Positions 355 to 35,690 of a stretch of 64,000 nt of DNA are shown piece by piece (position 1 is the first letter of the stretch; every line of letters begins with the position of its first letter). Under the pieces are notes generated by a model. It saw only the letters and a list, made by a program, of their open reading frames with translations. It ran no database searches and was not told the origin of the DNA. Position numbers and translations under genes: made by a program. The DNA comes from Klebsiella phage KPP2018, in sequence record NC_110934.1, one strand, 5' to 3'.

Positions 355-429
355 TGGTGCACCCTGTTCGTATCGAACGAACCTCTCAAGCTCTTCAGGC
401 AAGCGCTAATCCATCTCAGCTAAAGGTGC
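355..429 (-). tRNA. tRNA, anticodon loop CUGAAGA (GAA, Phe-like); anticodon stem has two U-U mismatches
   Basis: Reverse complement GCACCUU..GUUCG-UUCGAUA-CGAAC-AGGGUGC-A-CCA: 7-bp acceptor, D-arm, T-arm and encoded CCA. Confidence 0.65.
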
Positions 430-435
430 AAATTT

Positions 436-512
436 TGGCAGGGGTAAAGGTATTCGAAACCTTTTCATGGGTTTTGGAGGCCCATTTGCAACCTATGCGT
501 ACCCCAATTATT
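436..512 (-). ncRNA. tRNA-like remnant (T-arm AAGGU-UUCGAAU-ACCUU, U1-U72 mismatch, 9-nt anticodon loop); possibly pseudo-tRNA
   Basis: T-arm and acceptor recognisable but D-arm and anticodon arm non-canonical. Confidence 0.3.
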
Positions 513-515
513 AAT

Positions 516-590
516 TGGCACACCCAACGAGGATCGAACTCGTGTTCCCACTGTGAAAGAGTGGTGTCCTAACCGCTAGACGATAGGTGC
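516..590 (-). tRNA. tRNA-Glu (UUC)
   Basis: Revcomp has acceptor, D-arm GUCUAGCGGUUAGGAC, anticodon stem CCACU/AGUGG with loop CUUUCAC, T-arm GAGUUCGAUCCUCG, CCA. Confidence 0.85.
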
Positions 591-597
591 ATTAAAT

Positions 598-685
598 TGG
601 TGGGGAAAGATGGAGTCGAACCACCCGAGTCGCAATGACAACTGATTTACAGTCAGCTCTGCTACCACTTACAGAATATTTCCCC
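598..685 (-). tRNA. tRNA-Tyr (GUA), type II with long variable arm
   Basis: Revcomp GGGGAAA..; anticodon loop CUGUAAA; long variable arm; T-arm GGUUCGACUCC; acceptor GGGGAAA/UUUCCCC; CCA. Confidence 0.8.
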
Positions 686-815
686 ATATTTAGAAGTATT
701 CAAAAATTCTCATTTAAACACTTTTAAATATGTTTCCAAATTAGATAAATATTATATCAAGTTTTATAGTATTGGGCAAGTCAAATTTTAAAGAACTTGC
801 CCAATGCTGTATTAG

Positions 816-1091
816 TTAGTCGAACTTAGGAGTGACAGTTAAGGAGAACGGAAGTTCAAAAACTTCTTCGCCCTCATCACTAATAGTGATTACACGACCT
901 TTAAGTTCAGACATTGAAATATCAATATCAGCTTTTGCATCTGGAGCCATGCCAGCTTCAATACATTTAGCTTTAATTTCCGGCAGAAGTTCTACATCGT
1001 AGAAATAAAGCCATTCAATCTCACCTTCCCAGCCTTCCCAGGATTTACAGATTGCACTTTCAATACCAGCAGCTATAACACGATTTTGCAT
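816..1091 (-). CDS. hypothetical protein (91 aa)
   Basis: ORF track; preceded by conserved early promoter/leader; duplicated at 30280-30555. Confidence 0.55.
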   Translation of the reverse strand: MQNRVIAAGIESAICKSWEGWEGEIEWLYFYDVELLPEIKAKCIEAGMAPDAKADIDISMSELKGRVITISDEGEEVFELPFSLTVTPKFD

Positions 1092-1160
1092 TCGTTAACT
1101 CCTTCATCAATTTATATAACTATTATATCAGAAATTTAAAGCAAAAGGCAAGTACATTTT
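1092..1160 (-). promoter_or_regulatory. Conserved T5-type early promoter (-35 TTGCCT, 17 bp, -10 TATAAT) plus conserved leader/RBS
   Basis: Minus-strand reading: ..TTGCCTtttgctttaaatttctgaTATAATagttatataaattgatgaaggag; member of >20-copy element family. Confidence 0.7.
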
Positions 1161-1181
1161 TAAAAATTCTGTTTGGAGGAG

Positions 1182-1388
1182 CTAAACTCCAGATTCTTCA
1201 GCCAAGTCTAGACTAATAAGAGATATAGCCATAATTGCTGCTCCGTGCTCTTTTTCTCCAGTCTCTTTAGCTAGAGTTATAATATCAAGAAATTGCTTAT
1301 GAAAATCTGCAACCTCTTGAGTTATACCTGCCTCAGCAATCATGCCTTTAAGCATGAAGCGTTGTGCGGTAATTTCAGGATTAGCCAT
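1182..1388 (-). CDS. hypothetical protein (68 aa)
   Basis: ORF track; start ATG overlaps stop of upstream small ORF (ATGGCTAA coupling). Confidence 0.5.
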   Translation of the reverse strand: MANPEITAQRFMLKGMIAEAGITQEVADFHKQFLDIITLAKETGEKEHGAAIMAISLISLDLAEESGV

Positions 1389-1548
1389 GTTGTTTCTCCA
1401 GTTTCATCTTTAATAGTCTACAAATAAAATCAATGTCTTCATCCGTGCCTAGATCTCTATCTTCAAGGGTTGCCTTGAAGTTTTTAGTCAATTCCATGAG
1501 AATAACTTCTCTAGAACGACGTGTTGGCGGAGGTGGATGTCTATACAT
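1381..1548 (-). CDS. hypothetical small protein (55 aa, MYRHPPPPTRRSREVILMEL...)
   Basis: Unlisted (<60 aa) ORF; stop overlaps start of 1182-1388 gene, typical translational coupling. Confidence 0.4.
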   Translation of the reverse strand: MYRHPPPPTRRSREVILMELTKNFKATLEDRDLGTDEDIDFICRLLKMKLEKQHG

Positions 1549-1563
1549 CTTATTTCCTTAATT

Positions 1564-1640
1564 TGGTAGGGGTGGTGGGATTCGAACCCACAAAACCTGA
1601 ATTTTAAGTCCAGTACCTATGCCAATTCGATTACACCCCC
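1564..1640 (-). tRNA. tRNA, anticodon loop CUUAAAA (UAA, Leu-like) but type-I length with short variable loop
   Basis: Revcomp GGGGGUG..acceptor pairs with CACCCCU; anticodon stem CUGGA/UUCAG; T-arm GUGGG-UUCGAAU-CCCAC; A-CCA. Confidence 0.6.
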
Positions 1641-1647
1641 ATGTAGT

Positions 1648-1836
1648 TTAGTCAATTACTTTTGAGGCTTCAAGGTAGTCGATATAGTGTACGTTTTCTA
1701 CCGTAATCATATAATCCGCCACTTTATCCATAGCTTGGGCTTCAGAGGTAGCTCTGGCTAACCTATATCCTTTTCTATACTCATCCGGGTATTCTCTATC
1801 TTGAATAAACACAACATAAACTATATATAGATCCAT
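1648..1836 (-). CDS. hypothetical protein (62 aa)
   Basis: ORF track. Confidence 0.45.
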   Translation of the reverse strand: MDLYIVYVVFIQDREYPDEYRKGYRLARATSEAQAMDKVADYMITVENVHYIDYLEASKVID

Positions 1837-1855
1837 TTGTGACCTCTATTTAATT

Positions 1856-1933
1856 TGGTGGCTCCCCGAGGATTCGAACCTACGTACCTTCCGGTTATGA
1901 GCCGGGTGCTCATACCATATGAGCTTGAGAACC
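1856..1933 (-). tRNA. tRNA-Met/Ile2 (CAU)
   Basis: Revcomp GGUUCUC..; anticodon stem CCGG with loop CUCAUAA; T-loop UUCGAAU (T-stem has mismatches); acceptor with two G-U pairs; CCA. Confidence 0.65.
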
Positions 1934-1939
1934 AAAATC

Positions 1940-2028
1940 TGGCGGAAGAAGTGGGAATCGAACCCACAAGGCTATATTTCAAACCGACAGATTAGCAATC
2001 TGCTGCAATACCATTATGCTATTCTTCC
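1940..2028 (-). tRNA. tRNA-Ser (GCU), type II
   Basis: Revcomp GGAAGAA..; anticodon stem GCAGA/UCUGU, loop UUGCUAA; long variable arm; T-arm GUGGG-UUCGAUU-CCCAC; G-CCA. Confidence 0.8.
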
Positions 2029-2049
2029 GAATTTATAAGATATATTATA

Positions 2050-2571
2050 TTAGAAATTTAGCTTCATAGCAAGAAAATTTTTCAAGTTTTCGGTAGACAT
2101 CTCATCCACATCTACAGGAGAAACAAATCCATTTAATTGTCTAGCAAACTTTTCACCAGCAGGATCATTGTCCCCAACAGCTACCAATTTAAAAGGTAGT
2201 AATTTCAGTTGCTTTAATAACGCTTTTCCTGGAGAAGAACCCAACATTGCCAGGGCTGGATAACCCGCATTATGTAATGCAACTGCCTTAAATACAGATT
2301 CAGCAATCAATACTACTTTTTCATCCCCATTGAGAGTTTCTAGTCCCCATACACACTGTGTAGTAGAATAAGTAAAGTATTTAGCTTCAAAGGGGCACTT
2401 ACCATGACCTTTTGGAGCAGAAGGATTATAAGTTTGATAGCCCCTCAACATTCCAGAGAAATCATACAACGGGACTGTTAGCCACCCTTCCGGACTTAAC
2501 CAGCAATGATATTTATCTGTATCAAATCCTCTAGATAAGAGGTGCTGTGTTAGCTCATCAACATTCATATT
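2050..2571 (-). CDS. Toprim-domain protein (DnaG-primase-like Toprim: E in IAES, DxD in AVGDNDPAG)
   Basis: ORF track 2050-2619; real start is Met17 (MNVDELTQ..) because the conserved TATAAT+ATAAATTTGAGAGAGG leader ends there. Confidence 0.6.
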   Translation of the reverse strand, partial: NMNVDELTQHLLSRGFDTDKYHCWLSPEGWLTVPLYDFSGMLRGYQTYNPSAPKGHGKCPFEAKYFTYSTTQCVWGLETLNGDEKVVLIAESVFKAVALHNAGYPALAMLGSSPGKALLKQLKLLPFKLVAVGDNDPAGEKFARQLNGFVSPVDVDEMSTENLKNFLAMKLNF

Positions 2572-2663
2572 TGGTTCCTCTCTCAAATTTATAGATATAT
2601 TATACAGAGAATTTAGCATTCAAGCAATCAAATTTTTTAACTTTTTAGAGGAAAATCATAGGG

Positions 2664-2686
2664 CACTTAAGGGTAGCAGATAAGTG
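2664..2686 (+). promoter_or_regulatory. Inverted repeat CACTTAAG-N7-CTTAAGTG-like (CACTTA..TAAGTG), candidate operator upstream of Gly-rich gene promoter
   Basis: cacttaagggtagcagataagtg: 6-bp arms are reverse complements. Confidence 0.3.
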
Positions 2687-2744
2687 GTGAGGACCAAAAT
2701 TTGTGACCCCACTAAAAATCCAGGGGCAATTTTTAAAGACCCCT

Positions 2745-2772
2745 TGACATTTTCGCTGGGGTAGTGTAAAGT
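2745..2772 (+). promoter_or_regulatory. sigma70-like promoter (TTGACA, 16 bp, TAAAGT) for the Gly-rich protein operon; copy 1
   Basis: cccTTGACAttttcgctggggtagtgTAAAGTatatg; not of the conserved phage early-promoter class. Confidence 0.55.
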
Positions 2773-2834
2773 ATATGTTATGGATGAGTGATCAAAGAGA
2801 CACACATTTTCTATATACTAGGAGGTGTCAAAAA

Positions 2835-3611
2835 ATGACAGAAGAAGTAGCTAAGAGTCCTGAGACCGTCGCTAGCGTTGCAGCAGAACTGCACCGTCAC
2901 GAGGAATCAGATAAGAAAAAGTGGGAGAAGGTCAGAGCCTACGAAGAGAAACATCGTGAACACGATGAAGATGATGAAGAAGATGACGATGATGAGTATT
3001 GTCATAAATATGGAAAACGTAAAATGCAAGAACCAGTAAACGTATTCACTAGTGGCTTCCCTGGCCTAATGGGTGGTTACCCAGCAAACGCAGGTGCTTT
3101 CGGTGGTGAAGGTATGGGACTATTCGGAGCTATCCTAATCGGTGCTCTATTAACAGGCGGATTCGGTGGTTTTGGTGGATTTGGTGGACGTGGTGTAGTT
3201 GGTGAAGGTACCGCAGTTGATGCAGTACTTCAGAACCAAGATACCGCTAGTATTCTAGCAGCTATTAACACTACTCGTACAGAAGCTAACCAGGGTACTG
3301 GAGCTGTTTTAAGCGCAGTTAACAATGGTTTTAGCCAGACATCCCAAAACCAGAGCCGTGATACTCAGTCTGTACTAACTACGATCTATGGTACGGGTGC
3401 TAATCTGTCTAATCAAATCTGCCAGGAAACTCGCAACGTTATTCAGGGTCAGTTCGATCTTTCTCGCCAGATTGATCAATCTTTCGCAGCTAACCAGATA
3501 GCTCGTGCACAAGATAAGTTTGATTCTGCACAGATCGCTTTCCAGCAGACTTTACAAACTAATAACCAGTTTGCCGCTGTTCAGGCTCAGATGTGTGCTA
3601 ACCAGTTATGA
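2835..3611 (+). pseudogene. Truncated copy (258 aa + 1 junction aa) of Gly-zipper/QN-rich membrane protein gene; truncated at repeat boundary 3605/3606
   Basis: RBS AGGAGG 9 nt before ATG 2835; identical to first 257 codons of the 331-aa gene at 32299-33291, then reads L-stop across the junction. Confidence 0.75.
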
Positions 3612-25170: not shown

Positions 25171-25176
25171 ATTATT

Positions 25177-26215: not shown

Positions 26216-26221
26216 ATTGTT

Positions 26222-26312: not shown

Positions 26313-26349
26313 AATAATAAGATGATGCCTCTATCACACCAGGCAGTTA

Positions 26350-26420: not shown

Positions 26421-26424
26421 AATT

Positions 26425-27306: not shown

Positions 27307-27310
27307 AATT

Positions 27311-27656: not shown

Positions 27657-27662
27657 ATTGTT

Positions 27663-27738
27663 TGGTCAGTGCGGCAGGACTCGAACCTGCGACCCGAAGC
27701 ATCCAAGGCTCCCACGCTACCAACTGCGCTACGCACTG
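27663..27738 (-). tRNA. tRNA-Pro (UGG)
   Basis: Acceptor CAGUGCG/CGCACUG, anticodon loop CUUGGAU, T-arm GCAGG-UUCGAGU-CCUGC, A-CCA. Confidence 0.75.
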
Positions 27739-28774: not shown

Positions 28775-28851
28775 TGGCGCGACCGATGGGATTCGAACCC
28801 ACATTCTCTCCCGTGACAGGGGAGTACCATTACCAAGCCAGCCCCGGTCGC
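28775..28851 (-). tRNA. tRNA-Asp (GUC)
   Basis: Acceptor GCGACCG/CGGUCGC, anticodon stem CUCCC/GGGAG loop CUGUCAC, T-arm GUGGG-UUCGAAU-CCCAU, G-CCA. Confidence 0.8.
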
Positions 28852-29071: not shown

Positions 29072-29147
29072 AATGGTATCTGTGGCTGAATTCGATATCA
29101 GCAATGATAGCTGGTTGGCTACCGGTTTACTTAACTCTACACAGAAT
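29072..29147 (-). ncRNA. tRNA-like gene with aberrant T-loop and U1-U72 mismatch (anticodon arm unclear)
   Basis: Acceptor UUCUGUG/CACAGAU + A-CCA and T-arm GCUGA..UCAGC present, anticodon arm non-canonical. Confidence 0.35.
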
Positions 29148-29148: not shown

Positions 29149-29231
29149 TGGCGGGCCGTGTAGGATTCGAACCTACGTTGTCTTTCGACATGGATTAACA
29201 GTCCACCGCCAAACCGCTTGGCTAACGACCC
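29149..29231 (-). tRNA. tRNA-Asn (GUU) with extended variable region
   Basis: Acceptor GGGUCGU/ACGGCCC, anticodon stem GUGGA/UCCAU loop CUGUUAA, T-arm GUAGG-UUCGAAU-CCUAC, G-CCA; 83 nt. Confidence 0.65.
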
Positions 29232-29383
29232 TAAATTTATATTGCTGACTAGGATTTTCACCTAGACGGAGTTAGCACCGTAGCGTGTAGCGGCATACCC
29301 CTCCAAACCGTGCCTCATCTTTCAATTACGGAGACAGTGTTCCTACGCGTGCCTGAATTGATTTAACAATTCTTTCAGCAAAT

Positions 29384-29459
29384 TGGACGACCGCATGAGA
29401 TTTGAACTCACATAAGAAGGATTTGCAATCCTTCTCCTAAGCCATTCAGCCAACGGTCG
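29384..29459 (-). tRNA. tRNA-Cys (GCA)
   Basis: Acceptor CGACCGU/GCGGUCG, anticodon stem AAGGA/UCCUU loop UUGCAAA, T-arm GUGAG-UUCAAAU-CUCAU, U-CCA; driven by conserved promoter at 29480-29555. Confidence 0.75.
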
Positions 29460-29528
29460 ATTTATCTTGTTCTGTCATGTTGCTCCCCCAGTTCAATTTA
29501 TGTAATTATTATACAGAACTTTTGGAAA

Positions 29529-29816
29529 CTAAGCAACTACATTTTTTAAGAATTTGATGCCTTTCTTTCTCTTCTTATATTTCCACGTTAATGGATTCTG
29601 TCGATTATGAACACTTGAGATCTTTGTCTCATCAAAGTTCTTCAATATCATGTAATCACAAGATAGTTGTTCTAATGGAATGTGATCACCGTCAAAAGCG
29701 TGTACATAAGGTTGTTGACTAGCACGATAATGATAGACTTTGTTAATTCTACGTTTCAGCGACTTATCCGCGCAGTAAATAAAGAAGTTTTCAGGATGCA
29801 TCAGCAGCTCCTTCAA
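29529..29816 (-). CDS. hypothetical protein (95 aa), repeat copy 2 of 65-352
   Basis: Identical to copy 1. Confidence 0.5.
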   Translation of the reverse strand: MKELLMHPENFFIYCADKSLKRRINKVYHYRASQQPYVHAFDGDHIPLEQLSCDYMILKNFDETKISSVHNRQNPLTWKYKKRKKGIKFLKNVVA

Positions 29817-29818
29817 TT

Positions 29819-29893
29819 TGGTGCACCCTGTTCGTATCGAACGAACCTCTCAAGCTCTTCAGGCAAGCGCTAATCCATCTCAGCTAAAGGTGC
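29819..29893 (-). tRNA. tRNA (GAA, Phe-like), copy 2
   Basis: Identical to 355-429. Confidence 0.65.
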
Positions 29894-29979
29894 AAATTTT
29901 GGCAGGGGTAAAGGTATTCGAAACCTTTTCATGGGTTTTGGAGGCCCATTTGCAACCTATGCGTACCCCAATTATTAAT

Positions 29980-30054
29980 TGGCACACCCAACGAGGATCG
30001 AACTCGTGTTCCCACTGTGAAAGAGTGGTGTCCTAACCGCTAGACGATAGGTGC
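29980..30054 (-). tRNA. tRNA-Glu (UUC), copy 2
   Basis: Identical to 516-590. Confidence 0.85.
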
Positions 30055-30061
30055 ATTAAAT

Positions 30062-30149
30062 TGGTGGGGAAAGATGGAGTCGAACCACCCGAGTCGCAAT
30101 GACAACTGATTTACAGTCAGCTCTGCTACCACTTACAGAATATTTCCCC
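30062..30149 (-). tRNA. tRNA-Tyr (GUA), copy 2
   Basis: Identical to 598-685. Confidence 0.8.
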
Positions 30150-30279
30150 ATATTTAGAAGTATTCAAAAATTCTCATTTAAACACTTTTAAATATGTTTC
30201 CAAATTAGATAAATATTATATCAAGTTTTATAGTATTGGGCAAGTCAAATTTTAAAGAACTTGCCCAATGCTGTATTAG

Positions 30280-30555
30280 TTAGTCGAACTTAGGAGTGAC
30301 AGTTAAGGAGAACGGAAGTTCAAAAACTTCTTCGCCCTCATCACTAATAGTGATTACACGACCTTTAAGTTCAGACATTGAAATATCAATATCAGCTTTT
30401 GCATCTGGAGCCATGCCAGCTTCAATACATTTAGCTTTAATTTCCGGCAGAAGTTCTACATCGTAGAAATAAAGCCATTCAATCTCACCTTCCCAGCCTT
30501 CCCAGGATTTACAGATTGCACTTTCAATACCAGCAGCTATAACACGATTTTGCAT
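30280..30555 (-). CDS. hypothetical protein (91 aa), copy 2
   Basis: Identical to 816-1091. Confidence 0.55.
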   Translation of the reverse strand: MQNRVIAAGIESAICKSWEGWEGEIEWLYFYDVELLPEIKAKCIEAGMAPDAKADIDISMSELKGRVITISDEGEEVFELPFSLTVTPKFD

Positions 30556-30645
30556 TCGTTAACTCCTTCATCAATTTATATAACTATTATATCAGAAATT
30601 TAAAGCAAAAGGCAAGTACATTTTTAAAAATTCTGTTTGGAGGAG

Positions 30646-30852
30646 CTAAACTCCAGATTCTTCAGCCAAGTCTAGACTAATAAGAGATATAGCCATAATT
30701 GCTGCTCCGTGCTCTTTTTCTCCAGTCTCTTTAGCTAGAGTTATAATATCAAGAAATTGCTTATGAAAATCTGCAACCTCTTGAGTTATACCTGCCTCAG
30801 CAATCATGCCTTTAAGCATGAAGCGTTGTGCGGTAATTTCAGGATTAGCCAT
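30646..30852 (-). CDS. hypothetical protein (68 aa), copy 2
   Basis: Identical to 1182-1388. Confidence 0.5.
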   Translation of the reverse strand: MANPEITAQRFMLKGMIAEAGITQEVADFHKQFLDIITLAKETGEKEHGAAIMAISLISLDLAEESGV

Positions 30853-31027
30853 GTTGTTTCTCCAGTTTCATCTTTAATAGTCTACAAATAAAATCAATGT
30901 CTTCATCCGTGCCTAGATCTCTATCTTCAAGGGTTGCCTTGAAGTTTTTAGTCAATTCCATGAGAATAACTTCTCTAGAACGACGTGTTGGCGGAGGTGG
31001 ATGTCTATACATCTTATTTCCTTAATT

Positions 31028-31104
31028 TGGTAGGGGTGGTGGGATTCGAACCCACAAAACCTGAATTTTAAGTCCAGTACCTATGCCAATTCGATTACAC
31101 CCCC
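31028..31104 (-). tRNA. tRNA (UAA, Leu-like, type-I length), copy 2
   Basis: Identical to 1564-1640. Confidence 0.6.
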
Positions 31105-31111
31105 ATGTAGT

Positions 31112-31300
31112 TTAGTCAATTACTTTTGAGGCTTCAAGGTAGTCGATATAGTGTACGTTTTCTACCGTAATCATATAATCCGCCACTTTATCCATAGCTT
31201 GGGCTTCAGAGGTAGCTCTGGCTAACCTATATCCTTTTCTATACTCATCCGGGTATTCTCTATCTTGAATAAACACAACATAAACTATATATAGATCCAT
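31112..31300 (-). CDS. hypothetical protein (62 aa), copy 2
   Basis: Identical to 1648-1836. Confidence 0.45.
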   Translation of the reverse strand: MDLYIVYVVFIQDREYPDEYRKGYRLARATSEAQAMDKVADYMITVENVHYIDYLEASKVID

Positions 31301-31319
31301 TTGTGACCTCTATTTAATT

Positions 31320-31397
31320 TGGTGGCTCCCCGAGGATTCGAACCTACGTACCTTCCGGTTATGAGCCGGGTGCTCATACCATATGAGCTTGAGAACC
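31320..31397 (-). tRNA. tRNA-Met/Ile2 (CAU), copy 2
   Basis: Identical to 1856-1933. Confidence 0.65.
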
Positions 31398-31403
31398 AAA
31401 ATC

Positions 31404-31492
31404 TGGCGGAAGAAGTGGGAATCGAACCCACAAGGCTATATTTCAAACCGACAGATTAGCAATCTGCTGCAATACCATTATGCTATTCTTCC
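31404..31492 (-). tRNA. tRNA-Ser (GCU), copy 2
   Basis: Identical to 1940-2028. Confidence 0.8.
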
Positions 31493-31513
31493 GAATTTAT
31501 AAGATATATTATA

Positions 31514-32035
31514 TTAGAAATTTAGCTTCATAGCAAGAAAATTTTTCAAGTTTTCGGTAGACATCTCATCCACATCTACAGGAGAAACAAATCCATTTAA
31601 TTGTCTAGCAAACTTTTCACCAGCAGGATCATTGTCCCCAACAGCTACCAATTTAAAAGGTAGTAATTTCAGTTGCTTTAATAACGCTTTTCCTGGAGAA
31701 GAACCCAACATTGCCAGGGCTGGATAACCCGCATTATGTAATGCAACTGCCTTAAATACAGATTCAGCAATCAATACTACTTTTTCATCCCCATTGAGAG
31801 TTTCTAGTCCCCATACACACTGTGTAGTAGAATAAGTAAAGTATTTAGCTTCAAAGGGGCACTTACCATGACCTTTTGGAGCAGAAGGATTATAAGTTTG
31901 ATAGCCCCTCAACATTCCAGAGAAATCATACAACGGGACTGTTAGCCACCCTTCCGGACTTAACCAGCAATGATATTTATCTGTATCAAATCCTCTAGAT
32001 AAGAGGTGCTGTGTTAGCTCATCAACATTCATATT
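31514..32035 (-). CDS. Toprim-domain protein, copy 2
   Basis: Identical to 2050-2571. Confidence 0.6.
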   Translation of the reverse strand, partial: NMNVDELTQHLLSRGFDTDKYHCWLSPEGWLTVPLYDFSGMLRGYQTYNPSAPKGHGKCPFEAKYFTYSTTQCVWGLETLNGDEKVVLIAESVFKAVALHNAGYPALAMLGSSPGKALLKQLKLLPFKLVAVGDNDPAGEKFARQLNGFVSPVDVDEMSTENLKNFLAMKLNF

Positions 32036-32208
32036 TGGTTCCTCTCTCAAATTTATAGATATATTATACAGAGAATTTAGCATTCAAGCAATCAAATTTT
32101 TTAACTTTTTAGAGGAAAATCATAGGGCACTTAAGGGTAGCAGATAAGTGGTGAGGACCAAAATTTGTGACCCCACTAAAAATCCAGGGGCAATTTTTAA
32201 AGACCCCT

Positions 32209-32236
32209 TGACATTTTCGCTGGGGTAGTGTAAAGT
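32209..32236 (+). promoter_or_regulatory. sigma70-like promoter (TTGACA-16-TAAAGT) of Gly-rich/Q-rich/Cys-rich operon, copy 2
   Basis: Identical to 2745-2772. Confidence 0.55.
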
Positions 32237-32298
32237 ATATGTTATGGATGAGTGATCAAAGAGACACACATTTTCTATATACTAGGAGGTGTCAAAAA

Positions 32299-33291
32299 AT
32301 GACAGAAGAAGTAGCTAAGAGTCCTGAGACCGTCGCTAGCGTTGCAGCAGAACTGCACCGTCACGAGGAATCAGATAAGAAAAAGTGGGAGAAGGTCAGA
32401 GCCTACGAAGAGAAACATCGTGAACACGATGAAGATGATGAAGAAGATGACGATGATGAGTATTGTCATAAATATGGAAAACGTAAAATGCAAGAACCAG
32501 TAAACGTATTCACTAGTGGCTTCCCTGGCCTAATGGGTGGTTACCCAGCAAACGCAGGTGCTTTCGGTGGTGAAGGTATGGGACTATTCGGAGCTATCCT
32601 AATCGGTGCTCTATTAACAGGCGGATTCGGTGGTTTTGGTGGATTTGGTGGACGTGGTGTAGTTGGTGAAGGTACCGCAGTTGATGCAGTACTTCAGAAC
32701 CAAGATACCGCTAGTATTCTAGCAGCTATTAACACTACTCGTACAGAAGCTAACCAGGGTACTGGAGCTGTTTTAAGCGCAGTTAACAATGGTTTTAGCC
32801 AGACATCCCAAAACCAGAGCCGTGATACTCAGTCTGTACTAACTACGATCTATGGTACGGGTGCTAATCTGTCTAATCAAATCTGCCAGGAAACTCGCAA
32901 CGTTATTCAGGGTCAGTTCGATCTTTCTCGCCAGATTGATCAATCTTTCGCAGCTAACCAGATAGCTCGTGCACAAGATAAGTTTGATTCTGCACAGATC
33001 GCTTTCCAGCAGACTTTACAAACTAATAACCAGTTTGCCGCTGTTCAGGCTCAGATGTGTGCTAACCAGAACTCTCTGGAACGTCAGATCGCTGAATGTT
33101 GCTGTGAACTTCAGACTGCGATCGCTGGTGTAACTACTGCGCGTATCCAGGATGAGTTAGACGCATGTCGCCTACGTGAAGCAATCGCTGCGGGTAGCGG
33201 TGCTAACGGTCAGGTAATTAATCAAATCGCTTTAAGTCTTGGTGCTATCACTCAGACTCTGGCTGGTCTGCAGGCTAAACTGCCGGCTTAA
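32299..33291 (+). CDS. Gly-zipper membrane protein with acidic N-terminus and Q/N/S/T-rich coiled C-terminal domain (331 aa)
   Basis: RBS AGGAGG; acidic DEDDEEDDDDE stretch, hydrophobic GLFGAILIGALLTGGFGGFGGFGG segment, then QN-rich low-complexity domain with CCC motif; ~50% GC vs ~38% background. Confidence 0.65.
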   Translation: MTEEVAKSPETVASVAAELHRHEESDKKKWEKVRAYEEKHREHDEDDEEDDDDEYCHKYGKRKMQEPVNVFTSGFPGLMGGYPANAGAFGGEGMGLFGAILIGALLTGGFGGFGGFGGRGVVGEGTAVDAVLQNQDTASILAAINTTRTEANQGTGAVLSAVNNGFSQTSQNQSRDTQSVLTTIYGTGANLSNQICQETRNVIQGQFDLSRQIDQSFAANQIARAQDKFDSAQIAFQQTLQTNNQFAAVQAQMCANQNSLERQIAECCCELQTAIAGVTTARIQDELDACRLREAIAAGSGANGQVINQIALSLGAITQTLAGLQAKLPA

Positions 33292-33729: not shown

Positions 33730-33738
33730 GGAGGAATT

Positions 33739-33933
33739 ATGTGTTGCAGAAAATCTGTTTCGTGCTGCCCAATGCCTGTAGCACGTTGTTGCTCTTCAGC
33801 AATGTTTACACAAATACCGGCGTTCAATCCGTTTGCCTTTAAGCCTACTCTTATCCTGCCCCCTAGAGTAGATTTTCAGTCAAGGTTGGCCTCCCGTATG
33901 GGTGGTTGCTGTAATAAGAGTATATGGTTCTAA
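33739..33933 (+). CDS. Cys-rich peptide (64 aa) with four Cys-Cys doublets (MCCRKSVSCCPMPVARCCSS...GGCCNKSIWF)
   Basis: RBS AAGGAGG 5 nt upstream; followed by intrinsic terminator. Confidence 0.55.
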   Translation: MCCRKSVSCCPMPVARCCSSAMFTQIPAFNPFAFKPTLILPPRVDFQSRLASRMGGCCNKSIWF

Positions 33934-33944
33934 AGAACCAAACA

Positions 33945-33985
33945 ATAAAGCCCCTAGTCGAAAGACTTAGGGGCTTTTCTTTTAT
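33945..33985 (+). terminator. Rho-independent terminator (AGCCCCUAGUC-gaaa-GACUUAGGGGCU + UUUUCUUUU)
   Basis: Perfect 11-bp stem, tetraloop, U-tract. Confidence 0.75.
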
Positions 33986-33999
33986 CTTAAATACAGAAA

Positions 34000-34040
34000 A
34001 ACCCTGCGCTCTTCAGGGAACGCAGGGCTTACTTCAGATG
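34000..34040 (-). terminator. Rho-independent terminator for convergent SPFH gene (CCCUGCG stem, U-tract on minus strand)
   Basis: aaaaaccctgcgctcttcagggaacgcagggctt; hairpin with poly-U when read on minus strand. Confidence 0.65.
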
Positions 34041-34053
34041 TTACATGCGGGTA

Positions 34054-35001
34054 TTATTTATTACGCATATCCATGATCATTTGACCATCGTAGCCAGTAC
34101 CTACCACAGTCTGGGGTACACCACCTTGATATTTCTGAGCACGAATCATTTCGACTTCCAGTTGCTTCCAGCGAATCATCTCAGGAGTAATGGTACGTTG
34201 TAATGCGGCGTTAGCTTCAGCTTCTTTCTTAGCTGCGTATAGTTTAGCATCTGCGTCACGTTCATTGGCAATAGCTTGGTTGTTGCGGGCTTCACGATCT
34301 GCTTCTGCTTGTTTAACTTTTTGCTGTGCTTCCTGCTCAACACGAGCTAATTCAGCTTTAGCAGCATTAACCTGTTCTTCACGAACTTTGGTATTCTGTA
34401 CCTGTTCCATGATTACCGGTGGCAAAGTAATATCCTGAAGGAACACCTGCTTAACTGTGTAACCATATGGGCGTGCATACTCTTCAACTTCCTGTTGAAT
34501 TGCAGTTTGCAATTGAGCCTGAATTTTAGCATCAAACAAATCTTGTGCTTTAGGTACAGACTTACCAAACTCACGAATAGTAGACAGTAATTTTTCAGTT
34601 ACATATTTGTCTAACGCTTGATCCTGAGTACCTGCATTAATACGGTTAATTGGTGCCTTAGAACCATCAAACTGCAACATAACAGTCAGGTCAACAGTGG
34701 ATTTAAACTTATCCTGACTAGGAACCTGAAGTTTATCTAATTTTAGAGCAATATCTTTAGTACTAAAAGTATCGAAAGAAGCAAAAGGATTTACAATATG
34801 AAAGCCGGGTAATACTGGGCTAGGGTCAACTTTACCCAGGAAAGTCTGGGTTTTAACAGTACCGTCTTGAACAACAGTATAGGAGTTAAGGGCCAGAACT
34901 AAACCTACCAAACCAACTGCAGCACCAATACCCCAACGTTTGATATTACGCATCAATTTTTGCTCATAAGTCAGTTCTTTAGTGTTTTTAGTAGCAAACA
35001 T
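34054..35001 (-). CDS. SPFH/band-7 (HflC/HflK/prohibitin-like) membrane protein
   Basis: N-terminal TM helix, core GFHIVNPF..(cf. HflC GLHFKIPF), long Ala/Gln/Glu coiled-coil tail. Confidence 0.75.
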   Translation of the reverse strand: MFATKNTKELTYEQKLMRNIKRWGIGAAVGLVGLVLALNSYTVVQDGTVKTQTFLGKVDPSPVLPGFHIVNPFASFDTFSTKDIALKLDKLQVPSQDKFKSTVDLTVMLQFDGSKAPINRINAGTQDQALDKYVTEKLLSTIREFGKSVPKAQDLFDAKIQAQLQTAIQQEVEEYARPYGYTVKQVFLQDITLPPVIMEQVQNTKVREEQVNAAKAELARVEQEAQQKVKQAEADREARNNQAIANERDADAKLYAAKKEAEANAALQRTITPEMIRWKQLEVEMIRAQKYQGGVPQTVVGTGYDGQMIMDMRNK

Positions 35002-35035
35002 ATATTTCCTTTGTTTTAGTTACAGTTAATAAAAT

Positions 35036-35110
35036 TGGCCGAGGTGACAGGATTCGAACCTGCATAAAGGAATTTAGAAGACTCCTGCCTCTCCCTTAGA
35101 CTACACCCCG
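35036..35110 (-). tRNA. tRNA-Arg (UCU)
   Basis: Acceptor CGGGGUG/CACCUCG, anticodon stem GGAGU/AUUCC loop CUUCUAA, T-arm GCAGG-UUCGAAU-CCUGU, G-CCA. Confidence 0.75.
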
Positions 35111-35599
35111 TTTAAGTATTTTTAAGAACTCTCGTAAAAACTCTTAAAAATACAGACGATACCGGGAGAGTCATAAGTCTCACTCATTAAGTATTTCAAG
35201 ACAAAATACGGTAACGTCTATTATTTTCCAGTTTAAGTCAGGGTGACTTAGTGGTTATGTCCTGCGGTATATTGAGGACTCGGTTAGGCTTGGGGTCATG
35301 ACTTCCCGCCTTCTGCTGCTACTCAACAGGAGTTATCGCGAATTACCTGTGCTATTGTGCACCATTAGTGACATCTCTCACGTCAGCATTTCCCACTTTG
35401 TGGATAGCTTGAAAAACTACTCCGATATGGAGGAAGAACTTCACTATCCTAGAATACCTTCTAAAGTTCTTCTTTAGCCTGGACATAGTTAAATCGTAAT
35501 AAAACTATTCAGCAGACTGGTTGGTTAGTCTGGAACCAACTACCGCGTGGTTTAGGCAGTGCGCAACTAACCTCGGAAGCTTTTACGTTAAAAGCATCA

Positions 35600-35690
35600 G
35601 TTATCCAGTTCTTACCGACCGTAGGATTCGAACCTACATCTTCCACCAGTTACGGCTTGATAATACCAATTATACTAGGACGGCAGTGTT
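35600..35690 (-). ncRNA. tRNA-like element (T-arm GUAGG-UUCGAAU-CCUAC) without CCA and with poor anticodon arm; probable pseudo-tRNA
   Basis: Motif-level similarity only. Confidence 0.3.

What the first reader, a model, noticed from the sequence alone, without database searches (positions are those of the whole stretch)
355..35690. Large tRNA repertoire with several structurally aberrant members and pseudo-tRNA remnants
About 25 tRNA genes, 6 of them duplicated in the repeat, cover at least Phe, Glu, Tyr, Met/Ile x3, Ser x3, Ile, Thr, Gly, Gln x2, His, Ala, Val, Lys, Pro, Asp, Asn, Cys and Arg.

Oddities seen directly in the sequence:
- Two paralogous type-I-length tRNAs carry Leu anticodons (UAA at 1564-1640, UAG at 26425-26501), whereas Leu tRNAs are normally type II.
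- Thr (24521-24607) and Asn (29149-29231) tRNAs have 13-14-nt variable regions.
- Several have U1-U72 or other acceptor or T-stem mismatches (27579-27656, 436-512, 29072-29147).
- tRNA-like fragments lack half of the cloverleaf (26350-26420, 35600-35690, ~25780-25880, ~28150-28260).
- Structured non-coding stretches with no tRNA signature (25565-25930, 26590-26840, 28020-28400, 29232-29380) could be ncRNAs or decayed tRNAs.

Phage tRNA arrays are increasingly seen as counter-measures to host anticodon nucleases. Aberrant isoacceptors may be nuclease-resistant variants.
Basis: partly seen in the sequence, partly recalled or inferred. Interest (0 to 1): 0.55.

Follow-up and report, generated by a model that had tools for sequence, protein, structure and literature searches.

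The report
T5-like phage tRNA cluster, odd members
This is the well-known tRNA and small-RNA gene cluster of a T5-like phage; most "remnants" match stable RNAs already annotated in T5, but its arm-less leucine tRNAs and its extra-armed threonine and asparagine tRNAs belong to widespread phage tRNA classes that I did not find described.

Summary
The window comes from a T5-like phage (Markadamsvirinae). It carries 26 distinct minus-strand tRNA genes covering all 20 amino acids. Seven are repeated in an exact 3,605-bp duplication, giving 33 copies.

Most "pseudo-tRNA remnants" and "structured stretches" are homologues of stable RNAs already annotated in phage T5: RNAI, III, IV, 1, 2, 2H, 3 and X. 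The mismatch-rich 436-512 element is T5's tRNA-Trp.

Three oddities are absent from T5 itself:
- **Type-I tRNA-Leu(UAA/UAG).** They keep the full E. coli LeuRS identity set and covary in many phages. About 40% of sampled phage tRNA-Leu genes are of this short type.
[quoted passage not shown] In Asn, the hairpin's stem covaries across many phages.
- **A conserved structured ~150-nt RNA** at 29232-29383, which is unannotated.

All are most likely functional, not decayed. The nuclease-evasion idea is published for T5 Lys/Thr/Asn (PARIS AriB), but it works there through anticodon-stem substitutions that this phage lacks. Whether the variable-arm changes protect against nucleases is untested.

The parts
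1..3605 (.). Exact copy of 29465-33069 (first copy of the duplication). It carries 7 tRNA genes and ends inside an ORF.
   Evidence: 0 mismatches over 3605 bp, then about 25% identity. No record among 50,697 phage records spans the 3605|3606 junction. Sequence from 3606 onward matches the region about 7-8 kb from the left end of relatives.
355..429 (-). tRNA-Phe(GAA). Second copy at 29819-29893.
   Evidence: ARAGORN. Rfam 42.4 bits. 97% identical to T5 tRNA-Phe.
436..506 (-). tRNA-Trp(CCA) homologue with U1-U72, a small D arm and a C31-A39 mismatch. Second copy at 29900-29970.
   Evidence: Matches the annotated T5 tRNAW(CCA) with one substitution. Missed by ARAGORN and Rfam. Cloverleaf-like minimum-free-energy fold.
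516..684 (-). tRNA-Glu(UUC) 516-590 and tRNA-Tyr(GUA) 598-684. Second copies at 29980-30054 and 30062-30148.
   Evidence: Glu is only 61% identical to T5's Glu; Tyr is 92% identical.
1564..1640 (-). Type-I (5-nt variable loop) tRNA-Leu(UAA). Second copy at 31028-31104. No counterpart in T5.
   Evidence: ARAGORN. Rfam 57.4 bits. Has A73, A14, A15, G18G19, A20a and U48. Compensatory pair change in EscoHU1.
1856..2028 (-). tRNA-Ile2/Met(CAU) 1856-1933 and tRNA-Ser(GCU) 1940-2028. Second copies at 31320-31397 and 31404-31492.
   Evidence: Rfam 40.3 and 62.1 bits. ARAGORN. 97-99% identical to T5 tRNAI2(CAU) and S3.
23522..23770 (-). tRNA-Met(CAU) 23522-23597 and tRNA-Ile(GAU) 23694-23770.
   Evidence: 99% identical to T5.
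24521..24607 (-). tRNA-Thr(UGU), 87 nt, with a 3-bp D stem, an 11-nt D loop and a 15-nt variable region forming GGA-GUAA-UCC.
   Evidence: ARAGORN. Rfam 58.9 bits. 62% identical to T5 Thr, so it is a different gene at the same position. Found in about 100 T5-like records and, at 77% identity, in Aeromonas phage PX29. The variable stem changes GGA/UCC -> CC/GG -> GGGG/CCCC across Thr/Trp relatives. Positions 36-41 read UAAUCA.
25011..25252 (-). tRNA-Gly(UCC) 25011-25086, tRNA-Gln(UUG) 25095-25170 and tRNA-Gln(CUG) 25177-25252.
   Evidence: Gly is 100% identical to T5 Gly1. Both Gln genes are only 62% identical to T5's.
25487..25563 (-). tRNA-His(GUG).
   Evidence: 99% identical to T5.
25565..25926 (-). 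Homologues of T5 stable RNAs: RNAIII (25565-25670), RNAI (25675-25781) and the tRNA-like RNA1 (25782-25926).
   Evidence: BLAST against T5 misc_RNA features gives 99%, 92% and 87% identity over full length. Weak Rfam tRNA hit of 25.2 bits over 25793-25924.
26126..26312 (-). tRNA-Ser(UGA) 26126-26215 and tRNA-Ser(GGA) 26222-26312.
   Evidence: 89% and 72% identical to T5 S1 and S2.
26313..26424 (-). Spacer with a T-arm-like motif (AAUGGGUUCGAAUCCCAG) but no cloverleaf. Probable decayed 3' half of a tRNA. T5 has the homing-endonuclease gene hegC at this position.
   Evidence: Sequence. Fold z-score -0.38. 99% conserved in close relatives only. T5 map.
26425..26501 (-). Type-I tRNA-Leu(UAG). T5 has an unrelated 85-nt class II Leu(UAG) at the same position.
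   Evidence: Rfam 47.5 bits. 100% identical in BF23 and more than 120 other records. 76-89% identical in Felixounavirus, Vequintavirinae and other Demerecviridae. Covariation.
26507..26585 (-). tRNA-Ala(UGC), 79 nt, with G8, a 3-bp D stem, an 11-nt D loop, a 7-nt variable loop and G3-U70.
   Evidence: ARAGORN. No Rfam hit even at E<=10. Compensatory changes in Bas33 and R7 copies.
26605..26776 (-). Homologue of T5 stable RNA2H.
   Evidence: 99% identity over 172 nt.
27233..27738 (-). tRNA-Val(UAC) 27233-27306, tRNA-Lys(UUU) 27311-27389, fMet-like tRNA(CAU) 27579-27656 (U1-U72, A11-U24) and tRNA-Pro(UGG) 27663-27738.
   Evidence: fMet is 99% identical to T5 tRNAfM. Lys is 71% and Pro 64% identical to T5's. 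Lys positions 36-41 read UAAUCG.
28034..28279 (-). Homologues of T5 RNAIV (28034-28136) and the tRNA-like RNA2 (28155-28279). RNA2 has an 8-bp acceptor-like stem plus a T arm.
   Evidence: 97% and 96% identity. Fold.
28775..28851 (-). tRNA-Asp(GUC).
   Evidence: 99% identical to T5.
29074..29146 (-). Homologue of T5 RNA3 (tRNA-like): acceptor stem with U1-U72, T arm, ACCA end, and a 6-bp stem with a 6-nt loop in place of an anticodon arm.
   Evidence: 98.6% identity. Fold z-score -3.2.
29149..29231 (-). tRNA-Asn(GUU), 83 nt, with a 13-nt variable region forming GUC-GAAA-GAC, and G73.
   Evidence: Rfam 59.0 bits. 64% identical to T5 Asn. The hairpin covaries in T5-like, Proteus and T4-like Klebsiella/Erwinia phages. 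In IMG/VR it is strongly enriched for hairpins and GNRA loops.
29232..29383 (-). Conserved, structured, unannotated RNA of about 145 nt: closing stem, three inner helices and a T-arm-like terminal hairpin CUAGG-UGAAAAU-CCUAG.
   Evidence: No ORF lies inside it. No Rfam hit. 218 phage records hold it, almost all without annotation. 10 of 39 consensus pairs carry compensatory changes. It sits at different positions in the tRNA arrays of Klebsiella phages.
29384..29459 (-). tRNA-Cys(GCA).
   Evidence: 97% identical to T5.
29465..33069 (.). Second copy of the duplication, the one that is colinear with relatives.
   Evidence: Relatives cover 29000-37000 at 99-100% coverage.
35036..35110 (-). tRNA-Arg(UCU).
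   Evidence: 100% identical to T5.
35111..35740 (-). Homologue of T5 RNAX (stable RNA). It includes a tRNA-like element at 35612-35685 with a degenerate anticodon arm and no CCA.
   Evidence: 92-98% identity to RNAX. Rfam tRNA 35.5 bits. Annotated 'tRNA-OTHER' in phage Stokescottia. Fold.

Best explanation
The region is the tRNA and small-RNA module of the early region of a T5-like phage.

**Organisation.** It holds 26 distinct tRNA genes, all with an encoded CCA end. They are transcribed from the minus strand from T5-type early promoters. They are interspersed with small ORFs and with homologues of T5's eight annotated stable RNAs.

**The "remnants".** These are mostly those conserved stable RNAs.

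**The structurally odd tRNAs.** They are working genes, not decay products.
- The two type-I tRNAs with UAA and UAG anticodons are tRNA-Leu that have lost the long variable arm. They kept every element E. coli LeuRS uses: A73, A14, A15-U48, G18G19 and A20a. They are most likely leucylated by the host enzyme and read UUA/UUG and CUA/CUG, which the phage uses heavily.
[quoted passage not shown] They keep G1-C72/C2-G71 (which I recall as ThrRS identity elements) and G73 plus the GUU anticodon (recalled AsnRS elements), so they most likely still serve as Thr and Asn tRNAs.

**Role of the array.** It lets the phage translate when host tRNAs are limiting, or when host defences have cleaved them.

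**Shown versus inferred.**
- Shown here: the genes, their homology, their covariation and their identity elements.
- Shown in the literature for T5: function of many of these tRNAs as suppressors, and rescue from PARIS.
- Inferred: charging of the type-I Leu by E. coli LeuRS, and the role of the variable-region hairpins.
For: **Homology to T5.**
- The window is 95-98% identical and syntenic to many T5-like phages.
- The T5 reference annotates 25 tRNAs and 8 stable RNAs in the same order. All 8 stable RNAs map to the window at 87-99% identity.
- 15 tRNAs are at least 89% identical to T5's. T5 notes record amber-suppressor activity for many of these after anticodon replacement.

**Type-I Leu.**
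- Rfam scores are 57.4 and 47.5 bits.
- In a 9-sequence alignment from four phage groups, 96.7% of cells pair. 17 of 20 pairs have compensatory changes, and 0 of 500 shuffles reach this.
- Among 115 unique IMG/VR sequences, A73 occurs in 114/114, U48 in 114/115, and A20a and A21 are invariant. None of these positions was imposed by the search pattern. Stem pairing: acceptor 694/707, anticodon stem 563/575, T stem 567/575.
- E. coli LeuRS identity does not require the variable arm (PMC9976931).
- UUA is 24% and CUA 18% of Leu codons in the window's long ORFs. From memory, the E. coli values are roughly 13% and 4%.

**Variable-region hairpins.**
- Asn stems vary as GUC/GAC, GUUC/GAAC, AUCC/GGAU and GUCA/UGAC.
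- Among 111 distinct IMG/VR variable regions, 48 have hairpins of at least 4 bp (shuffles 19.5 +/- 3.7). 45 are GNRA-capped (shuffles 0.6 +/- 0.8).
- G73 occurs in 46/52 of an unbiased sample.
- Phage Bas33 carries the identical Thr gene. It escapes PARIS once only T5 tRNA-Lys is supplied (PMC12409363). This implies its own Thr(UGU) works.
Against: - No expression, processing or charging data exist for this phage.
- E. coli LeuRS did not charge the Streptomyces type-I tRNA-Leu(CAA) in vitro (PMC6614811), so leucylation of the phage type-I Leu by the host enzyme is not guaranteed.
- Several genes are weak or invisible to standard detectors. Trp and Ala are not found by Rfam. Gly and Ser(GGA) do not reach the Rfam tRNA gathering score and appear only with relaxed ARAGORN, apart from sub-threshold tRNA-Sec model hits.
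- T5 notes say that several tRNAs, Trp, Thr and Asn among them, did not become suppressors.
- A G73 tRNA with an extra arm could in principle be a SerRS substrate.
Confidence: 0.8

Rival explanations
1. The class switches are adaptations that let phage tRNAs escape host enzymes that target tRNA. The switches are loss of the variable arm in Leu and gain of a short hairpin in Thr and Asn. The enzymes would include nucleases such as PARIS AriB, which cuts at C40|A41, just below the variable region. Under this reading the hairpin or its absence changes the shape the enzyme reads, so no anticodon-stem substitution is needed.
For: - Thr(UGU) and Asn(GUU) are two of the three main AriB targets (PMC12409363).
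- T5's class-I Thr, Asn and Lys carry substitutions at position 39 (UAAGCA, UAAGUU, UAAACC). This window's Thr and Asn keep the host-like UAAUCA and UAAUCC and carry the hairpin instead.
- The authors state that AriB also reads parts of the tRNA body outside the anticodon arm.
- Bas33, which has the identical hairpin Thr and a hairpin Asn, needs only T5 tRNA-Lys to escape PARIS.
- 10 of the tRNAs, including Lys, Thr and Asn, are replaced by non-orthologous genes relative to T5 at the same map positions. That pattern fits diversifying pressure.
Against: - No experiment has tested it.
- In IMG/VR samples, U39 is about as frequent in hairpin Asn (30/52) as in class-I Asn (58/117). So there is no clear trade-off between hairpin and stem substitution.
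- Hairpins also occur in Ile(UAU), Cys, Trp and Met, which are not known AriB targets.
- I found no bacterial nuclease specific for class II tRNAs. The bacterial Schlafen studied cuts the anticodon arm at 30/31.
- Bas33 is naturally PARIS-sensitive.
Confidence: 0.2
2. The odd architectures are selectively neutral variation. The relevant synthetases do not read the variable region: LeuRS, and (from my recollection of the identity literature) ThrRS and AsnRS. Fast-evolving, frequently exchanged phage tRNA genes therefore drift between class I and class II shapes without functional consequence.
For: - LeuRS does not need the arm.
- Both forms of Leu and of Asn are common in phages. 103 short against 141 long Leu genes were found in loci not selected for Leu.
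- Contigs often carry both forms: 24 of 120 loci.
- Long variable regions appear at low frequency in many isotypes.
Against: - GNRA caps are enriched about 75-fold over shuffles, and stems are kept by compensatory changes. This shows selection for a stable protruding hairpin, not drift.
- Ser and Tyr almost never lose their arm in the same loci (296/299 and 146/150).
Confidence: 0.3
3. The aberrant genes are pseudogenes or decaying duplicates with no role in translation. This covers the type-I Leu, the hairpin Thr and Asn, Trp and Ala.
For: - Some score poorly or not at all with standard detectors.
- One true remnant exists at 26313-26424.
- The T5 annotation marks tRNA-Gln2 as a pseudogene.
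Against: - Compensatory changes occur in every helix.
- Identity elements are invariant in more than 100 divergent sequences.
- CCA ends are encoded.
- The genes are conserved in hundreds of phages from several families.
Confidence: 0.04
4. The type-I tRNAs with Leu anticodons are charged with another amino acid, or the G73 hairpin Asn is charged with Ser. Either would cause deliberate recoding or mistranslation.
For: - E. coli LeuRS failed on a Streptomyces type-I tRNA-Leu.
- SerRS recognises a long arm plus G73.
Against: - The full LeuRS identity set is conserved.
- From my recollection of the identity literature, other E. coli synthetases that accept A73 tRNAs read the anticodon or G3-U70. 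Both type-I Leu genes have G3-C70.
- Variable stems of 3-4 bp are shorter than I recall tRNA-Ser arms to be.
- The genes sit in lytic phages that use the standard code, and their ORFs are rich in UUA and CUA.
Confidence: 0.05

Closest known systems
Bacteriophage T5 tRNA and stable-RNA gene region (NC_005859 annotation: 25 tRNAs; RNAI, III, IV, 1, 2, 2H, 3, X)
   Same: Same gene order, strand and promoters. 15 tRNAs are 89-100% identical, and all eight stable RNAs are 87-99% identical. The U1-U72 Trp and fMet-like tRNAs are present in both.
   Different: - 10 tRNAs are non-orthologous replacements at 61-72% identity: Thr, Gln x2, Ser(GGA), Leu(UAG), Ala, Lys, Pro, Asn and Glu.
- T5 has a class II Leu(UAG) and class-I Thr and Asn.
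- T5 has no Leu(UAA).
- T5 carries homing-endonuclease genes and ORF T5.069 where the window has spacers.
- The window has an extra 3.6-kb duplication.
Type-I tRNA-Leu of Streptomyces coelicolor (tRNA-Leu(CAA), PMC6614811) and the short-variable-loop tRNA-Leu(UAG) of mycobacterial tRNA clusters (PMC6582537)
   Same: A Leu anticodon on a tRNA with a 4-5-nt variable loop, coexisting with class II tRNA-Leu in one cell. My genome scan finds such genes mainly in Actinobacteria and cyanobacteria.
   Different: - Here the genes sit in lytic phages of Enterobacteria, whose LeuRS was reported not to charge the Streptomyces type-I tRNA.
- The phage genes keep an E. coli-type D loop (GAAUUGGYAKA).
- No close relative was found in 5,426 complete E. 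coli genomes at E <= 1e-3.
[quoted passage not shown]
   Same: The same three isoacceptors are encoded, in a close relative of T5. Bas33, used in that work, carries the identical Thr gene.
   Different: The resistance substitutions at positions 39/41 are absent from the window's Thr and Asn. Only A41G is present in Lys. The bodies of these tRNAs are different genes with variable-region hairpins.
Nematode nev-tRNAs (class II tRNAs with non-Leu/Ser anticodons, PMC3333845)
   Same: A variable arm on a tRNA whose anticodon belongs to a class-I family.
   Different: By my recollection nev-tRNAs are charged with Leu, so they decode ambiguously. The phage Thr and Asn keep the identity elements of their own anticodon family, and their stems are only 3-4 bp with GNRA caps.
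Animal mitochondrial tRNA-Leu
   Same: tRNA-Leu without a long variable arm, recognised through A73 and A14.
   Different: The phage genes have canonical D and T loops and full-size arms, and must use a bacterial cytosolic LeuRS.

Membership tests
T5-type (Markadamsvirinae) tRNA/stable-RNA cluster | Synteny and high nucleotide identity with the T5 tRNA region | tested here: met
   105 records cover at least 80% of 23000-30000.
T5-type (Markadamsvirinae) tRNA/stable-RNA cluster | Homologues of stable RNAs I, III, IV, 1, 2, 2H, 3 and X | tested here: met
   All eight found at 87-99% identity.
T5-type (Markadamsvirinae) tRNA/stable-RNA cluster | T5 early promoters (TTGCTA-17-TATAAT type) upstream of tRNA groups | tested here: met
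   Repeat family of 18 copies. The five best promoter-like sites are all on the minus strand. 26777-26844 matches the T5 P13b region.
Canonical tRNA (Rfam RF00005) | Covariance-model score above the gathering score of 29 bits | tested here: met
   Leu(UAA) 57.4, Leu(UAG) 47.5, Thr 58.9, Asn 59.0. Not met for Ala 26507-26585, Trp 436-506, Gly 25011-25086 and Ser(GGA) 26222-26312.
E. coli-type tRNA-Leu (LeuRS substrate) | Discriminator A73 | tested here: met
   Both window genes. 114/114 IMG/VR relatives.
E. coli-type tRNA-Leu (LeuRS substrate) | A14, A15-U48 Levitt pair, G18G19 and A20a | tested here: met
   Invariant in alignment A1. U48 in 114/115 relatives, and A20a invariant without being imposed by the search pattern. 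Identity set taken from PMC9976931.
E. coli-type tRNA-Leu (LeuRS substrate) | Class II architecture (long variable arm) | tested here: not met
   The variable loop is 5 nt, GUUUU.
E. coli-type tRNA-Leu (LeuRS substrate) | Leucylation by host LeuRS | not testable with these tools
   Needs aminoacylation assays. The literature is mixed: minimal tRNA-Leu is active, but the Streptomyces type-I tRNA is not charged by EcLeuRS.
Type-I tRNA-Leu (Streptomyces / mycobacterial arrays / mitochondria) | Leu anticodon with a 4-5-nt variable loop in an otherwise complete cloverleaf | tested here: met
Class II tRNA | Variable region over 10 nt forming a stem-loop | tested here: met
   Thr: 15 nt, GGA-GUAA-UCC. 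Asn: 13 nt, GUC-GAAA-GAC. Covariation and GNRA enrichment.
Class II tRNA | Ser, Leu or Tyr (or Sec) identity | tested here: not met
   The anticodons are UGU and GUU. Thr has G1-C72, C2-G71 and A73. Asn has G73.
AriB-resistant phage tRNA variants (T5 Lys/Thr/Asn) | Substitution at positions 39/41 flanking the C40|A41 cleavage site | tested here: not met
   Window Thr reads UAAUCA and Asn UAAUCC, both host-like. Lys reads UAAUCG, changed at position 41 only. T5 has UAAGCA, UAAGUU and UAAACC.
AriB-resistant phage tRNA variants (T5 Lys/Thr/Asn) | Resistance to AriB cleavage and rescue of infection | not testable with these tools
   Only indirect evidence: Bas33, with the identical Thr, is rescued by T5 tRNA-Lys alone.
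Bacterial initiator tRNA | Unpaired 1-72, A11-U24, and three G-C pairs at the bottom of the anticodon stem (features recalled from the initiator-tRNA literature, not looked up) | tested here: inconclusive
   For 27579-27656: U1-U72 mismatch and A11-U24 are present, but the anticodon stem is C-G, U-A, A-U, G-C, U-G, so the three G-C pairs are absent. It is 99% identical to the gene T5 annotates as initiator tRNA.

The most novel reading that the evidence does not exclude
Phages systematically remodel the variable region of their tRNAs. They delete the long arm of tRNA-Leu in about 40% of sampled phage Leu genes. They add a short GNRA-capped hairpin to Asn, Thr, Cys, Trp and Ile(UAU) tRNAs. The novel reading is that this is a shape-based way to escape host tRNA-targeting immunity while staying chargeable by host synthetases.

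On this reading the window's Thr(UGU) and Asn(GUU) would resist PARIS AriB through the hairpin. They keep the host-like AriB motif, whereas T5's resist through the position-39 substitutions.
Probability: 0.2. Interest if true: 0.8.

Novelty: new variant of a known kind. Interest (0 to 1): 0.5.

Why it matters
Most of the finding is a re-discovery of the T5 tRNA and stable-RNA region, which is useful mainly as a correct annotation. The remaining part matters for two reasons.

**It contradicts a textbook generalisation.** A 2023 review states that tRNA-Leu carries a long variable arm everywhere except animal mitochondria (PMC9976931). In my sample, arm-less tRNA-Leu genes are about 40% of phage Leu genes. 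They occur in phages of E. coli and Salmonella, whose LeuRS was reported not to charge a Streptomyces type-I tRNA-Leu.

**It offers natural test substrates for how defence nucleases recognise tRNA.** Hairpin-bearing Asn and Thr tRNAs are exactly two of the isoacceptors that the PARIS nuclease attacks. In this phage lineage they lack the known escape substitutions. How nucleases such as AriB recognise the tRNA body is an open question in that field.

The unannotated structured RNA at 29232-29383, and the T5 stable RNAs of unknown function, remain unexplained products of a model phage family.

Tried and rejected
- **Rfam at E<=10 over 23000-36500.** No family other than tRNA and tRNA-Sec gave a credible hit. 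The T5-type stable RNAs and the 29232-29383 RNA have no Rfam family.
- **Trade-off between hairpin and stem substitution in Asn.** The hairpin set has UCC at 39-41 in 27% against 10% for class I. U39 overall is 58% against 50%. This is inconclusive, and the hosts are unknown.
- **Thr/Trp scaffold scan in IMG/VR.** Only T5-like, Aeromonas PX29-like and Erwinia phages matched. That is too few sequences for statistics.
- **A class II-specific bacterial tRNase that would explain arm loss in Leu.** The bacterial Schlafen paper reports cleavage at 30/31 of the anticodon arm and no class II preference. Idea not supported.
- **Supplementary alignments of the AriB paper.** None are held.
- **Type-I Leu(UAG) against 5,426 complete E. 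coli genomes.** No match, so there is no prophage or host source.
- **Pseudogene reading of the odd tRNAs.** Rejected on covariation.
- **Coding reading of 29232-29383.** Rejected: no ORF lies inside it.
- **Fold of 26313-26424.** Not better than shuffles (z = -0.38). I treat it as a decayed fragment, not an ncRNA.
- **Literature.** Searches on type-I tRNA-Leu or variable arms in phages returned no paper describing them. Term searches inside five phage- or tRNA-structure papers found no mention either.

Full report
**What the window is.** The segment 23000-30000 matches 660 phage records. 105 of them cover at least 80% of it at 95-98% identity, and the listed best matches are Escherichia and Salmonella T5-like phages. 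The same holds for 29000-37000. Gene-by-gene synteny with phage Stokescottia and with the T5 reference confirms that this is the early-region tRNA cluster of a member of Demerecviridae/Markadamsvirinae. The source genome itself is not in the phage collection: no record covers more than about half of 1-7000.

**Checking the observation.**
- ARAGORN finds 27 tRNA genes, all on the minus strand. Rfam's tRNA model finds 29 above its gathering score.
- Relaxed ARAGORN adds Gly(UCC) 25011-25086 and Ser(GGA) 26222-26312, and also calls the CAU gene 1856-1933/31320-31397, which Rfam had already found. All three have near-identical or syntenic counterparts annotated in T5.
- That makes 26 distinct genes for all 20 amino acids.
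- Positions 1-3605 are an exact copy of 29465-33069, so seven genes are present twice: Phe, Trp, Glu, Tyr, Leu(UAA), Ile2(CAU) and Ser(GCU).
- All genes encode their CCA end.

**The "remnants" and "structured stretches".** The T5 reference record annotates eight stable RNAs in this region: RNAIII, RNAI, RNA1 (tRNA-like), RNA2H, RNAIV, RNA2 (tRNA-like), RNA3 (putative tRNA-like) and RNAX. All eight map to the window at 87-99% identity:

| Window coordinates | T5 stable RNA |
|---|---|
| 25565-25670 | RNAIII |
| 25675-25781 | RNAI |
| 25782-25926 | RNA1 |
| 26605-26776 | RNA2H |
| 28034-28136 | RNAIV |
| 28155-28279 | RNA2 |
| 29074-29146 | RNA3 |
| 35111-35740 | RNAX |

- These are conserved genes of unknown function, already on record, not decay.
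- The fourth fragment (26350-26420) lies in a 112-nt spacer. The spacer has a T-arm-like motif but no cloverleaf, and its fold is no better than shuffles. T5 has a homing-endonuclease gene at that position. This one is plausibly a real remnant.
- The fourth stretch (29232-29383) is new to the annotation and is described below.

**Type-I tRNA-Leu.**
- *Structure.* Both genes (UAA at 1564-1640/31028-31104, UAG at 26425-26501) are complete cloverleaves. They have a 3-bp D stem, the D loop GAAUUGGCAUA, a 5-nt variable loop GUUUU and A73. They score 57.4 and 47.5 bits with Rfam's tRNA model.
- *Relation to T5.* At the position of the UAG gene, T5 has an unrelated 85-nt class II tRNA-Leu. T5 has no UAA gene.
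- *Distribution in sequenced phages.* The UAG gene is 100% identical in BF23 and more than 120 other T5-like records. It has 76-89% relatives in Felixounavirus, Vequintavirinae and larger Demerecviridae. Phage ULIM3, a Felixounavirus, has three type-I Leu genes: UAG, CAA and UAA.
- *Covariation.* In a nine-sequence alignment, 96.7% of cells pair and 17 of 20 pairs show compensatory changes. No shuffle or slid control comes close.
A73 (114/114), U48 (114/115), A20a and A21 were conserved although the pattern did not specify them.
- *Identity.* These positions are the E. coli LeuRS identity set, which does not include the variable arm. Arm-less E. coli tRNA-Leu variants remain active (PMC9976931).
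- *Frequency.* In 333 viral loci selected only for holding an Asn gene, 103 of 244 unique Leu genes are type-I length.
- *Cellular genomes.* The same pattern is frequent in GTDB genomes, mainly Actinobacteria and cyanobacteria, mostly as lone genes.
- *Precedents.* A Streptomyces type-I tRNA-Leu has been characterised (PMC6614811). A short-loop Leu(UAG) has been noted in a mycobacterial tRNA cluster (PMC6582537).
- *Conclusion.* The kind is known, but I found no paper noting it for phages.
- *Codon use.* The phage uses UUA (24%) and CUA (18%) heavily, which fits these two anticodons.
- *Open point.* E. coli LeuRS failed to charge the Streptomyces type-I tRNA. Charging of the phage genes is likely but unproven.

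**Thr and Asn with extra hairpins.**
- *Thr structure.* Thr(UGU) is 87 nt. It has a class II-like D arm and the variable region A-GGA-GUAA-UCC-CGUU.
- *Asn structure.* Asn(GUU) is 83 nt. Its variable region is GUC-GAAA-GAC-AAC.
- *Scores and origin.* Both score about 59 bits. Both are different genes from T5's class-I Thr and Asn, at 62-64% identity.
- *Asn distribution.* The Asn type occurs in hundreds of records, including Proteus phages and T4-like Klebsiella, Erwinia and Pectobacterium phages. Its stems change in a compensatory way: GUC/GAC, GUUC/GAAC, AUCC/GGAU, GUCA/UGAC.
- *Asn in IMG/VR.* The type is abundant there. Of 111 distinct variable regions, 48 form hairpins of at least 4 bp (shuffles 19.5 +/- 3.7). 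45 are GNRA-capped (shuffles 0.6 +/- 0.8). G73 is kept in 46/52 of an unbiased sample.
- *Asn frequency.* In loci selected for Leu genes, 6 of 79 Asn genes are of this type.
- *Thr distribution.* The Thr scaffold is rarer. It occurs in T5-likes and Aeromonas PX29-like phages. With a different acceptor stem, anticodon stem and G73, it occurs as tRNA-Trp in Erwinia phages.
- *Conclusion.* The hairpins are selected structures on tRNAs that keep G1-C72/C2-G71 (Thr) and G73 with GUU (Asn), which I recall as the identity marks of their own anticodon families.

**Link to host defence.**
- PARIS AriB cleaves E. coli tRNA-Lys(UUU), Thr(UGU) and Asn(GUU) between C40 and A41, within U36-A-A-U-C. T5's three variants together neutralise PARIS and carry substitutions around the cleavage site (PMC12409363).
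- I confirm T5's motifs: UAAACC (Lys), UAAGCA (Thr) and UAAGUU (Asn). The window has UAAUCG, UAAUCA and UAAUCC, so Thr and Asn are host-like.
- Bas33 (HildyBeyeler) carries the identical hairpin Thr and a hairpin Asn, but no Lys(UUU). It is reported to escape PARIS once T5 tRNA-Lys alone is supplied.
- That is consistent with the hairpin Thr being functional and not disabled by AriB. It is indirect evidence.
- My association test was inconclusive. Hairpins also occur in isotypes not known to be AriB targets.
- I therefore keep "hairpin as nuclease shield" as the most novel reading, not the best one.

**How the module most likely works.**
- Transcription runs on the minus strand from repeated TTGCTA-17-TATAAT promoters. 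These coincide with promoters annotated in T5.
- Tightly spaced tRNAs, often 5-8 nt apart, and stable RNAs would be cut out of polycistronic precursors. That step is inferred.
- The tRNAs are charged by host synthetases. They serve phage translation, compensating for codon usage and for host tRNAs lost to defence nucleases. The defence part is shown for T5 in the literature.

**The 29232-29383 RNA.**
- It contains no ORF and has no Rfam match.
- It is present in 218 phage records, almost always unannotated.
- It includes Klebsiella Sugarlandvirus and a roughly 147-kb Klebsiella phage. There it sits between different tRNA genes.
- The consensus fold has 39 pairs, 10 of them with compensatory changes. 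It has a closing stem and a T-arm-like hairpin.
- It looks like a further member of the T5-type stable-RNA set.

**The duplication.**
- The first copy ends at 3605 inside the 350-aa ORF seen intact at 32239-33291. It joins sequence that in relatives lies about 7-8 kb from the left end.
- No other record has this junction.
- The identity is perfect, and the repeat starts at window base 1. An assembly or record-editing artefact is at least as likely as a real rearrangement. The "duplicated tRNAs" should not be counted as extra dosage without confirmation.

**Verdict.** The cluster and most oddities are already known from T5. The arm-less Leu and the hairpin Thr and Asn are real, conserved and widespread in phages. 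They appear undescribed as classes and are experimentally tractable.

Noticed in passing
window 1-3605 and 29465-33069: Exact 3,605-bp direct repeat starting at window base 1. The first copy truncates the 350-aa ORF (32239-33291) to 278 aa and abuts sequence from near the left end of T5-like genomes. The junction is found in no other phage record. It is a possible assembly artefact or a strain-specific rearrangement.
   Followed up: partly
window 29232-29383 (minus strand): Unannotated conserved structured RNA of about 145 nt between tRNA-Cys and tRNA-Asn. It occurs in 218 phage records. It sits between Asn and Cys, in the opposite order, in Klebsiella Sugarlandvirus, and between two Ser genes in phage P8734. 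10 of 39 pairs carry compensatory changes. No Rfam family matches.
   Followed up: partly
window 26507-26585: tRNA-Ala(UGC) is invisible to Rfam even at E<=10. It has G8 instead of U8, a 3-bp D stem with an 11-nt loop and a 7-nt variable loop. It keeps G3-U70 and A73, and shows compensatory changes in Bas33 and R7.
   Followed up: partly
window 23522-35110 against T5 (L002): tRNA identity to T5 is bimodal. 15 genes are 89-100% identical. 10 genes at the same map positions are only 61-72% identical: Thr, Gln x2, Ser(GGA), Leu(UAG), Ala, Lys, Pro, Asn and Glu. This is cassette-like replacement of individual tRNA genes within a conserved scaffold.
   Followed up: partly
IMG/VR loci, e.g. L033, L038, L065, L096, L104, L273: 31 of 81 phage tRNA-Ile(UAU) genes carry a 21-27-nt variable arm with a conserved motif (GCGCCAGAUUAGCG) on very different tRNA bodies. 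Short GNRA-capped variable hairpins also occur in phage Cys, Trp, Lys and Met tRNAs.
   Followed up: no
window 25782-25926 (RNA1 homologue): Its 5' part (GCCGGAAUCGGUAGACGG) resembles a class II tRNA-Leu D arm, and its 3' part is a T arm plus acceptor strand. RNA1 may be a tRNA-Leu derivative with an insertion of about 60 nt. Rfam tRNA scores 25.2 bits over 132 nt.
   Followed up: no
window 35945-36388 (-), 31514-32083 (-), 34054-35001 (-): ORFs flanking the tRNA genes. One is a 147-aa protein with a sub-threshold YqeY/GatB-tail-like match (25.4 bits against a cutoff of 27), annotated 'tRNA amidotransferase' in T5. One is a 189-aa Toprim protein next to tRNA-Ser(GCU). One is an SPFH/Band-7 protein next to tRNA-Arg.
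   Followed up: partly
window, 18 copies, e.g. 24281-24345, 26803-26867, 27964-28030, 29487-29551, 35887-35951: A 65-nt repeat family on the minus strand containing TTGCT(A/T)-17-TATAAT. It corresponds to T5 early promoters.
   Followed up: partly
L009 142-228 (Erwinia phage IT22); L262, L269: An 87-nt tRNA-Trp(CCA) shares the D arm, variable hairpin and T arm of the T5-like hairpin Thr(UGU). It has a different acceptor stem, anticodon stem and G73. One scaffold appears to have been re-used for two identities.
   Followed up: no
L003 2723-2808 (Salmonella phage R7): An annotated 86-nt 'tRNA-Lys' that ARAGORN does not call. It appears to carry an insertion 5' of the anticodon arm.
   Followed up: no
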